Below are positions 15,901 through 16,801 of a DNA stretch of 64,000 nt, in pieces. Position numbers: made by a program. The stretch is from Octopus vulgaris (lineage: Eukaryota), in NCBI GenBank assembly GCA_951406725.2, contig OX597819.1, forward strand, positions 73,284,001 to 73,348,000. The letters run 5' to 3'. Positions within the stretch are counted from its first letter, which is position 1. Each line of letters begins with the position of its first letter.

Positions 15901-16801
15901 CTCTGACTTTCACTAGCTGTGATCTTAACTCTTTCTATATTTGCTCTTGTGTTATATACCCACGTCTATTTTATACACACCTTAGCCACTAACAATGAGT
16001 GTATAATGGCATTTTTCTGTTTGTAGTCCAGAAGATGATGAATGCCGACTCCATAGGTTTGTATGTGTTATCGATCCCCTCCTCTGCTCAGTTCATTTTG
16101 AATGCCAATATTTTATTTAATTCATTGCCATTCCATCATTTCTGTTGGCTTCAGTCACTGTCTCATGTTGGCTTGTGCTTGTATTATTATTATTATTTTT
16201 ATTATATAAATATGGTTTATCATTTTCTTTTTTCCCTTTCTTTATTGTGCTTATCACATCTAAACCCAATCAACATTATATACTACTGCGTTTTTTTACA
16301 GACGTGTATAAGTGGATTGAGTTAGTAGTTTTAGTTTGTCATTTTTGGTTCTTAAGGCAATTTTTTTTTTTTTAGTATTGGTTGTCAGTATTTAGTGAAA
16401 TATTTTATTGCCATTCCATTGTGATCAATTTAGTTTTCAAGTGTGCATGGAAGAAATGGTGAGCATTGTAGCAGTGGTAAAATAAGCTCCTGGCAAACTA
16501 ATTGCAGACTTGGTTTTTTTTTCATTATCTTTTTGTTACAACTGTTTTGTTTTACTCACCACACTGCTGTTGCTGCTGCTGCCCTTTGGAAAGGCATGAA
16601 TGTCTTGACTTCTTTTAATTCCTTTTTTTTCAGTCAGTAAAGTTAAACAGTCACACCGATCTTAAAATGTAAAGCTGTTGACCTGTATCAGTTCAAAGAT
16701 ATTTTTGAAAATTTAAATGTCACCCAGAAGTTTAATTATCAAAATCATGAGCCAGCATGGAAACCAAACACTAAAGCTGATGAAGAAAACTATTATTGAT
16801 G

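What the first reader, a model, noticed from the sequence alone, without database searches (positions are those of the whole stretch)
16000..16470. Three candidate microexons in UBXN7, two of them frame-coupled
Seen: the phase-1 intron 12723-19280 is mostly SINE/MITE sequence, but a repeat-free island holds three AG/GT-bounded segments of 30 nt (16027-16056), 19 nt (16302-16320) and 17 nt (16442-16458). The 30-nt segment inserts VQKMMNADSI in frame. The 19- and 17-nt segments each shift the frame alone but together add 36 nt, DVYKWIDVHGRN, with no stop. Inference: a combinatorial microexon switch that edits the linker between the UBA and UAS domains of a p97 adaptor, where including only B or only C would give a frameshifted, probably NMD-targeted mRNA. 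The next exon (66 nt) is also symmetric and could be skipped. I know of no description of this cluster.
Basis: partly seen in the sequence, partly recalled or inferred. Interest (0 to 1): 0.78.

Follow-up and report, generated by a model that had tools for sequence, protein, structure and literature searches.

The report
One annotated microexon, two chance look-alikes
Of three tiny candidate exons in an octopus UBXN7 intron, the 30-base one is a real alternative exon that public gene models already carry and that cuttlefish share, while the 19- and 17-base pair has no support beyond what chance gives.

Summary
The coordinates, AG/GT borders, lengths and translations of all three segments are correct. 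Segment A (16027-16056, 30 nt, VQKMMNADSI) is a genuine cassette microexon and is already annotated. With-A and without-A UBXN7 isoforms that differ only by these 10 residues exist for Octopus bimaculoides, O. sinensis and O. vulgaris. The annotated junctions are exactly 12722>16027 and 16056>19281. A cuttlefish and an unnamed cephalopod-like transcript set carry an 11-residue version (VQKMITAD.TI), also alternative. Oysters, scallops, a chiton and a nemertean have annotated alternative inserts of 8-16 residues at the same junction. Segments B and C have no support. None of 214 proteins held contains their peptides, and all 16 cephalopod-type proteins spanning the junction are either with-A (8) or without-A (8). 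The intron holds 1075 AG..GT segments of 3-51 nt and 145 frame-coupled open pairs with sites at least as good as B/C. B's acceptor is strong and C's is poor. No cephalopod genome or RNA-seq data could be reached, so use of B as a poison exon stays open. Overall: known microexon plus probable pseudo-exons.

The parts
12655..12722 (+). UBXN7 exon upstream of the intron (68 nt, ends in phase 1; encodes ..RAPIPQKREILVEDAPVF)
   Evidence: tblastn of P0010. The junction solver gave the unique solutions 6337>12655 and 12722>16027.
12723..19280 (+). Phase-1 intron of the isoform without A (6558 nt)
   Evidence: Isoforms P0008, P0006 and P0012 read EDAPVF|GFRGRR. The borders are GTAAGT...TTTCAG.
15653..16772 (.). 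Stretch with no other copy in the window. It is T-rich on the + strand and holds A, B and C.
   Evidence: Self-blastn coverage map. AT skew is -0.24 to -0.38 over 15900-16700.
16027..16056 (+). Segment A: a real, annotated 30-nt alternative cassette microexon (VQKMMNADSI) with a weak donor, TAG|GTTTGT
   Evidence: It matches residues 95-105 of P0010, P0011 and P0001 at 100%. The junctions 12722>16027 and 16056>19281 are unique solutions. Three Octopus isoform pairs differ only by these 10 residues. Cuttlefish and an unnamed cephalopod-like set carry VQKMITAD(A/T)TI.
16302..16320 (+). Segment B: 19-nt candidate, most likely a pseudo-exon. It has the best-scoring acceptor of the intron and a weak donor. 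Included alone, it gives a stop at codon 19.
   Evidence: PWM acceptor score 12.0 (rank 1 of 350) and donor 2.9 (rank 29 of 386). Translation. 0 of 214 proteins contain VYKWI.
16442..16458 (+). Segment C: 17-nt candidate, most likely a pseudo-exon. It has a poor AAG acceptor and a good donor, and it contains the only TGCATG of the island.
   Evidence: PWM acceptor score -7.7 (rank 115 of 350) and donor 7.8 (rank 2 of 386). TGCATG lies at 16444-16449. 0 of 214 proteins contain VHGRN.
19281..19346 (+). Constitutive 66-nt exon (GFRGRRPAKSVFDGFRDFQAEA): a basic cluster plus the invariant FDGFRDF block
   Evidence: Invariant columns in 45 sequences. Present in 18 of 19 cephalopod-type proteins.

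Best explanation
The window carries most of the UBXN7 gene of an Octopus vulgaris-like genome.

Segment A is a genuine 30-nt cassette microexon. It is included or skipped to give two proteins that differ by 10 residues (VQKMMNADSI). The insert sits in the conserved linker between the UBA and UAS domains, two residues before a conserved basic cluster (RGRRPAK). Its weak donor (TAG|GTTTGT), next to constitutive GTAAG/GTGAG donors, fits regulated rather than constitutive use.

This exon is already in public annotations, and its sequence is conserved between octopods and a cuttlefish.

Segments B and C are most likely chance AG..GT pseudo-exons in the T-rich unique sequence that flanks A. They are not a frame-coupled pair of coding microexons.

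Shown: A's junctions, both isoforms, conservation in cephalopods, and the chance level for B/C-like segments.

Inferred: regulated inclusion through the weak donor, and an effect on the spacing or charge next to the basic cluster. That cluster is a candidate nuclear import signal, but its position in UBXN7 is not given in the papers I read.
For: 1. A search with one exon alone (31982-32470) returned XP_014772020.1, O. bimaculoides UBXN7 isoform X1, which reads EDAPVF-VQKMMNADSI-GFRGRR.
2. Its cluster holds with-A and without-A forms for O. bimaculoides (523/513 aa), O. sinensis (528/518) and O. vulgaris (527/517). Each pair differs only by the 10 residues.
3. All 11 junctions of P0010 have one solution on the window, among them 12722>16027 and 16056>19281.
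4. Acanthosepion pharaonis has P0018 (with insert) and P0019 (without). The unnamed set has P0017 and P0003. Both carry an 11-residue VQKMITAD(A/T)TI insert at the same place. P0017 is a full-length spliced ORF on a 2181-nt contig, so it derives from mRNA (inference).
5. Octopus versus cuttlefish insert: alignment score 29, reached by 0 of 2000 shuffles.
6. B/C: 0 of 214 proteins hold their peptides. Of the 16 cephalopod-type proteins that span the junction, 8 have A, 8 lack it and 0 show anything else.
7. The search among shorter proteins found no cephalopod fragment or truncated form: 21 hits among 35 candidates, best identity 59%.
8. Chance: 95 segments at the B/C site level and 145 frame-coupled open pairs in this intron.
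9. Strong acceptor-to-donor pairs within 300 nt occur once on each strand of the window, against 1.03 and 0.60 expected if the sites were independent.
10. The T-rich composition of the island explains why high acceptor scores cluster there.
Against: - B's acceptor is the best of 350 AG sites in the intron, and C's donor is the second best of 386 GT sites.
- B scores higher than the real exon A at both sites: 12.0/2.9 against 7.5/2.5.
- Only 5 (+ strand) and 0 (- strand) microexon-sized segments in the whole window match B on both sites.
- B has a TGC at -15..-13 before a U-run. That feature is reported for eMIC-dependent microexons (PMC8797185, passage).
- Transcripts that include B or C alone would be NMD targets, so protein databases would not show them.
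- The PWM rests on only 10 sites of one gene.
- The orthologous introns and RNA-seq data could not be examined, so absence of use is not shown.
- Support for A in Octopus rests on gene models. That NCBI's models draw on RNA-seq is recalled, not checked here.
Confidence: 0.8

Rival explanations
1. B and C are real microexons that are included together. They add DVYKWIDVHGRN to the linker, combine with A, and single inclusion gives NMD substrates.
For: AG/GT borders, lengths 19+17=36 and an open joint frame are confirmed. B has a strong acceptor and C a strong donor. Both lie in the unique island next to a real microexon.
Against: 0 of 214 proteins contain the peptides, and 0 of 16 cephalopod-type proteins spanning the junction show any third form. 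145 such coupled pairs are expected in this intron at the same site quality. C's acceptor is AAG with score -7.7, and B's donor is GTTAGT with score 2.9. Two weak inner sites across a 121-nt intron make obligate co-inclusion unlikely (inference).
Confidence: 0.04
2. Unproductive splicing. B alone (19 nt), or one 157-nt exon from B's acceptor to C's donor (16302-16458), is used at some level as a poison exon. It introduces a stop and lowers UBXN7 output through NMD.
For: B's acceptor ranks 1 of 350 and C's donor 2 of 386 in the intron, and they lie 157 nt apart in the right order. B alone stops at codon 19 and the 157-nt exon at codon 25. Such products would be missing from protein sets, so their absence there does not count against this reading.
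Against: One such strong pair per strand is what the window gives by chance: observed 1 and 1, expected 1.03 and 0.60. High acceptor scores follow the T-rich composition of the island. No truncated cephalopod protein appeared among shorter hits. There is no transcript or conservation evidence.
Confidence: 0.1
3. The B/C region is not exonic. It is part of the intronic control region of microexon A, for example a downstream UGCAUG (Rbfox-type) element inside C and U-rich tracts. This would explain why the flank is free of repeats.
For: The repeat-free flank 15653-16772 surrounds A. The only TGCATG of the island lies in C, 388 nt after A's donor.
Against: TGCATG is not enriched: 40 in the window against 59 expected, with all 100 shuffles reaching at least 40. 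About 1 per 2.7 kb on the + strand means one in a 1.1-kb island is unremarkable. That the motif binds Rbfox is recalled, not tested. Conservation was not testable.
Confidence: 0.1

Closest known systems
Annotated UBXN7 isoform pairs of Octopus: XP_014772020.1/XP_014772021.1 (O. bimaculoides), XP_029637452.1/XP_029637453.1 (O. sinensis), CAI9724396.1/CAI9724395.1 (O. vulgaris)
   Same: Segment A is this exon. The inserted peptide is identical and the junctions are identical.
   Different: Nothing differs for A. B and C appear in none of these models.
Neural (eMIC/SRRM-dependent) microexons of bilaterians (PMC8797185, passages read)
   Same: A is 30 nt, in frame, alternative, has a weak 5' splice site and sits in a conserved protein region. 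These are the general traits of the class.
   Different: No TGC lies in the 23 nt before A's acceptor. Tissue specificity and dependence on Srrm234 are unknown. UBXN7 is not mentioned together with microexons in the library (0 papers).
Recurrent alternative exons at equivalent intron positions ('convergence type I', bioRxiv 10.64898/2026.09.05.749416, passages read)
   Same: Alternative inserts of 8-16 residues sit at the same junction in oysters, scallops, a chiton and a nemertean.
   Different: Whether these are one old exon or repeated gains is open. Similarity is clear only within cephalopods and within oysters, and weak between octopus and oysters (shuffle fractions 0.005-0.043, uncorrected, 28 comparisons). 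The preprint's main text does not mention UBXN7, and its supplements are closed.
Poison (NMD-coupled) cassette exons
   Same: B alone, C alone or a 157-nt B-to-C exon would bring an early stop.
   Different: No evidence of use and no conservation data. Site strength is at the chance level for the window.

Membership tests
Alternative cassette microexon (segment A) | Length of at most about 30 nt (up to 51 in wider definitions) with canonical AG/GT borders | tested here: met
   30 nt, TAG|..|GT
Alternative cassette microexon (segment A) | Both inclusion and skipping products exist | tested here: met
   Three Octopus isoform pairs differ only by the 10 residues. Among cephalopod-type proteins there are 8 inclusion and 8 skipping forms. 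This is evidence at the level of proteins and gene models; no reads were seen.
Alternative cassette microexon (segment A) | Keeps the reading frame | tested here: met
   30 nt, open in phase 1
Alternative cassette microexon (segment A) | Conserved in related species | tested here: met
   Acanthosepion pharaonis P0018 and the unnamed P0017 carry VQKMITAD(A/T)TI. Octopus versus cuttlefish scores 29, reached by 0 of 2000 shuffles.
Neural eMIC/SRRM-dependent microexon (segment A) | UGC motif close to the 3' splice site after a long pyrimidine tract | tested here: not met
   No TGC in the 23 nt upstream of 16027; the pyrimidine tract is 12/17.
Neural eMIC/SRRM-dependent microexon (segment A) | Neural-enriched inclusion that depends on Srrm234 | not testable with these tools
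   No expression data could be reached.
Coding microexons (segments B and C, as a frame-coupled pair) | Transcripts or proteins that contain them | tested here: not met
   0 of 214 proteins hold VYKWI or VHGRN, and 0 of 16 junction-spanning cephalopod-type proteins show a third form. This is weak, because few octopus transcript-derived proteins are in the set.
Coding microexons (segments B and C, as a frame-coupled pair) | Splice sites stronger than the intronic background | tested here: inconclusive
   B's acceptor ranks 1 of 350 but its donor 29 of 386. C's acceptor ranks 115 of 350 and its donor 2 of 386. There are 95 comparable segments and 145 coupled pairs in the intron.
Coding microexons (segments B and C, as a frame-coupled pair) | Conservation of the sites and of the summed length in other cephalopods | not testable with these tools
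   No cephalopod genome is in any reachable collection; genome contigs holds bacteria and archaea only.
Poison exon (B alone or 16302-16458) | Inclusion brings a premature stop | tested here: met
   Stops at codons 19 and 25
Poison exon (B alone or 16302-16458) | Observed inclusion, raised when NMD is blocked; conserved flanks | not testable with these tools
   No RNA data and no orthologous introns.
UBXN7/UBXD7 (UBA-UAS-UIM-UBX adaptor of p97) | UBA, thioredoxin-like UAS and UBX domains in this order | tested here: met
   Pfam: UBA_4 13-49, Thioredoxin_7 161-241, UBX 447-526 in P0010. PDB chains of human UBXN7 match: 2dlx, 5x3p, 1wj4, 2dal. The UIM was not scored by Pfam here.

The most novel reading that the evidence does not exclude
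The alternative exon at this junction is not a cephalopod peculiarity. It is an old lophotrochozoan device: one ancestral cassette, now diverged, or a site where such exons arise again and again.

It inserts 8-16 mostly acidic or hydrophobic residues directly before the conserved basic cluster of the UBXN7 linker. In this reading it tunes nuclear import or the geometry of this p97 adaptor in a tissue-specific way.

Probability: 0.3. Interest if true: 0.45.

Novelty: already known. Interest (0 to 1): 0.2.

Why it matters
As it stands this is an annotation-level fact. Octopus UBXN7 has a known with/without 10-residue isoform pair, and the two extra 'microexons' are probably noise, so little changes.

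Two things are worth keeping:

1. **Splice-site strength alone cannot pick microexons here.** The real exon A ranks only 10th of 1075 candidates, and the unsupported B ranks first. Sequence-only calls of microexons in long, T-rich cephalopod introns need transcript or conservation evidence.

2. **The same junction carries an annotated alternative insert in 12 named species of two phyla**. The insert lies beside a basic cluster in a protein reported as exclusively nuclear (PMC3349548, passage) and said to have a strong cNLS (PMC10541173, passage, no position given). If the insert changes import or p97-UFD1-NPL4 assistance, it would be a simple, testable case of a microexon tuning a ubiquitin-system adaptor.

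I found no paper on it: UBXN7 or UBXD7 with 'microexon' gave 0 papers.

Tried and rejected
- **Structure prediction of the inclusion isoform** (alignment A2). The job failed without being counted. There is therefore no model of the linker, and the protein-level mechanism stays inferred.
- **Search among shorter proteins** for octopus fragments or truncated B-type products: none found. The best identity was 59%, and no hit was a cephalopod.
- **Rfam on the intron**: 4 sub-threshold miRNA-like matches, none in 16000-16470. Three fall on the foldback at 16925-17020.
- **ARAGORN on the intron**: 0 genes, so a tRNA-derived SINE was not shown.
- **TGCATG as a regulatory lead**: not enriched.
- **ORFs of at least 30 aa on both strands of 15950-16520**: only short open frames of AT-rich sequence, nothing gene-like on the minus strand.
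- **Homology of the inserts between classes**: inconclusive.
- **Literature.**
  - microexon + octopus: 4 papers, 3 listed.
  - microexon + cephalopod: 2 papers.
  - UBXN7 + alternative splicing + isoform: 32 papers, 10 listed, none on this exon by title.
  - 'mutually inclusive' + microexons + reading frame: 2 unrelated papers.
- **Joined splice models.** I searched no database with a joined model of my own. The window was searched with single exons only, and the joined step was left out. B's and C's own in-frame pieces are 5 residues each, too short to search, so a direct look-up of the B+C peptide stayed undone.
- **Closed or out of reach.** Orthologous introns stayed unchecked. The supplements of the bioRxiv preprint, which uses O. 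bimaculoides splicing data, are closed and may list this exon.

Full report
**What is in the sequence.**

The stated coordinates hold.
- The upstream UBXN7 exon ends at 12722 (TTG|GTAAGT), leaving one base of a codon.
- A (16027-16056, 30 nt) is bounded by TAG| and |GTTTGT.
- B (16302-16320, 19 nt) is bounded by CAG| and |GTTAGT.
- C (16442-16458, 17 nt) is bounded by AAG| and |GTGAGC.
- The next exon is 19281-19346 (66 nt).

A script that joined the segments by coordinate confirmed the translations. That model was sent to no search.
- A gives VQKMMNADSI.
- B+C gives DVYKWIDVHGRN with no stop.
- B alone stops at codon 19 and C alone at codon 41.
- A single exon from B's acceptor to C's donor (157 nt) stops at codon 25.

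The window has no N and 38% G+C.

**The gene.**

I searched exon by exon and left the joined step out. The 163-residue exon 31982-32470 alone, searched among longer proteins, returned 4 proteins with E <= 0.001 among 7997 scored candidates.
- The best was XP_014772020.1, UBX domain-containing protein 7 isoform X1 of Octopus bimaculoides.
- tblastn of the O. vulgaris protein P0010 (CAI9724396.1) back onto the window is 100% identical over the last large exons. The O. sinensis protein is 98-99% identical there. The window is therefore O. vulgaris-like.
- A local junction solver found exactly one AG/GT solution for each of the 11 junctions.

Pfam places UBA_4 at 13-49, Thioredoxin_7 (the UAS fold) at 161-241 and UBX at 447-526. 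The solved human UAS domain 2dlx aligns to 136-279. A encodes residues 95-104, so 'linker between UBA and UAS' is right.

**Segment A is real and already annotated.**
- The first hit itself reads EDAPVF-VQKMMNADSI-GFRGRR.
- Its 90% cluster has 11 named members.
- In O. bimaculoides (523/513 aa), O. sinensis (528/518) and O. vulgaris (527/517), the long and short forms differ by these 10 residues and nothing else.
- A further O. vulgaris model (P0005) starts at a Met inside A.
- That NCBI's models rest on RNA-seq is recalled, not checked here.

There is independent support outside Octopus.
- The cuttlefish Acanthosepion pharaonis has a 429/418-aa pair with VQKMITADATI at the same place.
- An unnamed, cephalopod-like cluster has P0017 with VQKMITADTTI and P0003/P0015 without it.
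- P0017 is a full-length spliced ORF on a 2181-nt contig, so it derives from mRNA (inference).
- Octopus and cuttlefish inserts align with score 29, reached by 0 of 2000 shuffles.
- Of 19 cephalopod-type proteins held, 16 span the junction: 8 include the A-type insert, 8 skip it, and none shows anything else.

**Segments B and C.**
- None of the 214 proteins held contains VYKWI or VHGRN, the in-frame cores of B and C.
- A search among proteins shorter than 287 residues, with the linker region of P0001, found 21 hits among 35 candidates. None was a cephalopod (best identity 59%), so no truncated B-type product is on record either.
- This is weak negative evidence, because the collection evidently holds few octopus transcript-derived proteins.

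Chance gives plenty of such segments.
- The intron has 1075 AG..GT segments of 3-51 nt, and 262 are symmetric and open in phase 1.
- 95 have a pyrimidine tract and donor match at least at the level of B/C. Among those, 145 pairs are individually frame-shifting but jointly open.
- The reverse-complement control gives 50 segments and 23 pairs. Other introns of the gene give 0-89 pairs.

I also built a PWM from the 10 constitutive sites of this gene, leaving A out. It gives a mixed picture.
- B's acceptor scores 12.0, the best of 350 AG sites in the intron. Its donor scores 2.9, rank 29 of 386.
- C's acceptor scores -7.7, rank 115 of 350. Its donor scores 7.8, rank 2 of 386.
- The real exon A scores only 7.5 and 2.5, and ranks 10th of 1075 candidates by summed score. 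B ranks first.
- Over the whole window, acceptors at least as good as B's number 6 (+) and 4 (-). Donors at least as good as C's number 37 and 32.
- Acceptor-to-donor pairs within 300 nt number 1 and 1, against 1.03 and 0.60 expected if the sites were independent.
- The B-to-C pairing is thus at chance level.
- The clustering of high acceptor scores in the island follows its T-rich + strand, with AT skew -0.24 to -0.38.
- The PWM rests on ten sites, so it is rough.

I conclude that the coupled coding pair is unlikely, because the inner sites are weak and no product is known. Use of B, or of the 157-nt span, as an unproductive exon cannot be excluded.

**The island and the repeats.**
- blastn of the intron against the window gave 153 non-self hits covering 38% of the intron, in families of up to 26 copies.
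- 15653-16772 has none.
- So the island is real by this limited test, while 'mostly SINE/MITE' is not shown.
- No tRNA-like gene was found.

**The 66-nt exon.**
- It encodes the basic cluster and the FDGFRDF block, which are invariant or nearly so in 45 aligned UBXN7 sequences from molluscs to vertebrates.
- 18 of 19 cephalopod-type proteins contain it. The one without it is a C-terminal fragment.
- Skipping is unsupported.

**Beyond cephalopods.**

Listing the members of 20 further clusters showed annotated isoform pairs that differ only by one insert at the same junction.
- Ostrea edulis, Magallana gigas, M. angulata and Crassostrea virginica: 15 residues, such as SAPHMEEMLHPQDSV.
- Mizuhopecten yessoensis and Pecten maximus: 14 residues, LAH(F/Y)SGQMSDDDLG.
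- The chiton Liolophura sinensis: 8 residues, VHREIFDA.
- The nemertean Lineus longissimus: 16 residues, AVPQVGSREDAELELL.

In the 15 pairs compared, 13 differ by one such insert of 8-16 residues and nothing else. The unnamed pair also differs at its N-terminus, and Gigantopelta differs by one residue.

No insert is annotated in the Mytilus, Patella, Haliotis, Biomphalaria, Lingula or Tubulanus entries examined, or in the vertebrate entries listed.

Similarity between classes is weak. Octopus versus oysters gives shuffle fractions of 0.005-0.043, uncorrected over 28 comparisons. The other comparisons are not distinguishable from shuffles. One ancestral exon and repeated gains at an equivalent intron position are therefore both open. 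The latter is a described category ('convergence type I', bioRxiv 10.64898/2026.09.05.749416, passages).

**How A most likely works.**

At the RNA level, A has a usable acceptor and a weak donor (GTTTGT), whereas all ten constitutive donors of the gene are GTAAG, GTGAG or GTAAA. That fits regulated inclusion (inference). It lacks the UGC motif reported near the acceptors of eMIC-dependent microexons (PMC8797185, passage).

At the protein level, the insert separates two invariant blocks, RAPIPQKREILVEDAPVF and GFRGRRPAKSVFDGFRDF. It lies two residues before the basic cluster. From the papers I saw passages only:
- Flag-UBXN7 is exclusively nuclear in HeLa cells (PMC3349548).
- UBXN7 has 'its strong cNLS', with no position given (PMC10541173).
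- UBXN7, unlike FAF1/2, loses its stimulation of p97-UFD1-NPL4 when N-terminal parts are deleted (PMC12965308).

From these I infer that the insert changes spacing or local charge next to a candidate import signal or a binding surface. This was not tested. The structure prediction that could have shown whether the linker is ordered did not run.

**Novelty and verdict.**

A is already known at the level of public annotation. I found no paper about it: UBXN7 or UBXD7 with 'microexon' gave 0 papers. Of the papers on microexons with octopus or cephalopod, I checked two by term search. The preprint has no UBXN term in its main text, and in PMC8797185 I did not search for UBXN7. The others I saw only as search listings, and none names UBXN7 in its title or abstract start.

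B and C are best read as pseudo-exons, with a small chance of unproductive use.

Interest is low for the finding as stated. The recurring insert at one junction across two phyla is the part worth a follow-up.

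Noticed in passing
window 16840-17110: A near-perfect 271-nt foldback: arms of about 120 nt, 93-95% complementary, RNA fold -188 kcal/mol, z -32, reached by 0 of 200 shuffles. It looks like a MITE or foldback element about 380 nt downstream of C. Rfam gives only sub-threshold miRNA-like matches on both strands.
   Followed up: partly
window 17565-18356 (tandem repeats 18172-18325): A long open frame made of 20/38-nt tandem repeats inside the intron. 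The first 77 residues of the older O. bimaculoides model A0A0L8HIT0 (P0014) map here (18008-18280, 66% identity). That model seems to have taken an intronic repeat for a first exon. Pfam finds no family.
   Followed up: partly
proteins P0155-P0204 (not in the window); junction = window 12722|19281: Annotated alternative inserts of 8-16 residues at the same UBXN7 junction in four oysters, two scallops, a chiton and a nemertean. None is annotated in the mussels, limpets, abalones, Biomphalaria, Lingula or vertebrates examined.
   Followed up: partly
window 16027-16056 (P0005): An O. vulgaris model (CAI9724397.1, 430 aa) begins at a Met inside microexon A (MMNADSIGFRG...). This suggests a 5'-incomplete or alternative-start transcript that still joins A to 19281.
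   Followed up: no
window 16287-16301 and 16444-16449: A TGC at -15..-13 followed by a U-run lies before B's acceptor, and the only TGCATG of the island lies inside C. Both are motifs tied to regulated splicing elsewhere, and neither is beyond chance here.
   Followed up: partly
window 9925-11462 (-), 55817-56418 (+), 62663-63699 (+): Transposon remains: reverse-transcriptase fragments (RVT_1, E 2e-08) in the intron 6338-12654; a Tc1/mariner-type piece (HTH_Tnp_Tc3_2, DDE_3, E 1.4e-10); and a DDE_1 (pogo-like) piece (E 1e-09).
   Followed up: no
window 52619-53095 (-): An open frame with a C2H2 zinc finger (zf-C2H2_2, E 4.4e-08) followed by a low-complexity I/T/A-rich run, downstream of UBXN7 on the other strand. 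It may be an exon of a neighbouring gene.
   Followed up: no
window 13096-13301, 13471-13888, 15116-15291, 18352-18502 and many other places: A short interspersed repeat family with up to 26 copies in the 64-kb window. Its translations recur in many open frames (...WMPFLTPT...). It was not classified.
   Followed up: no
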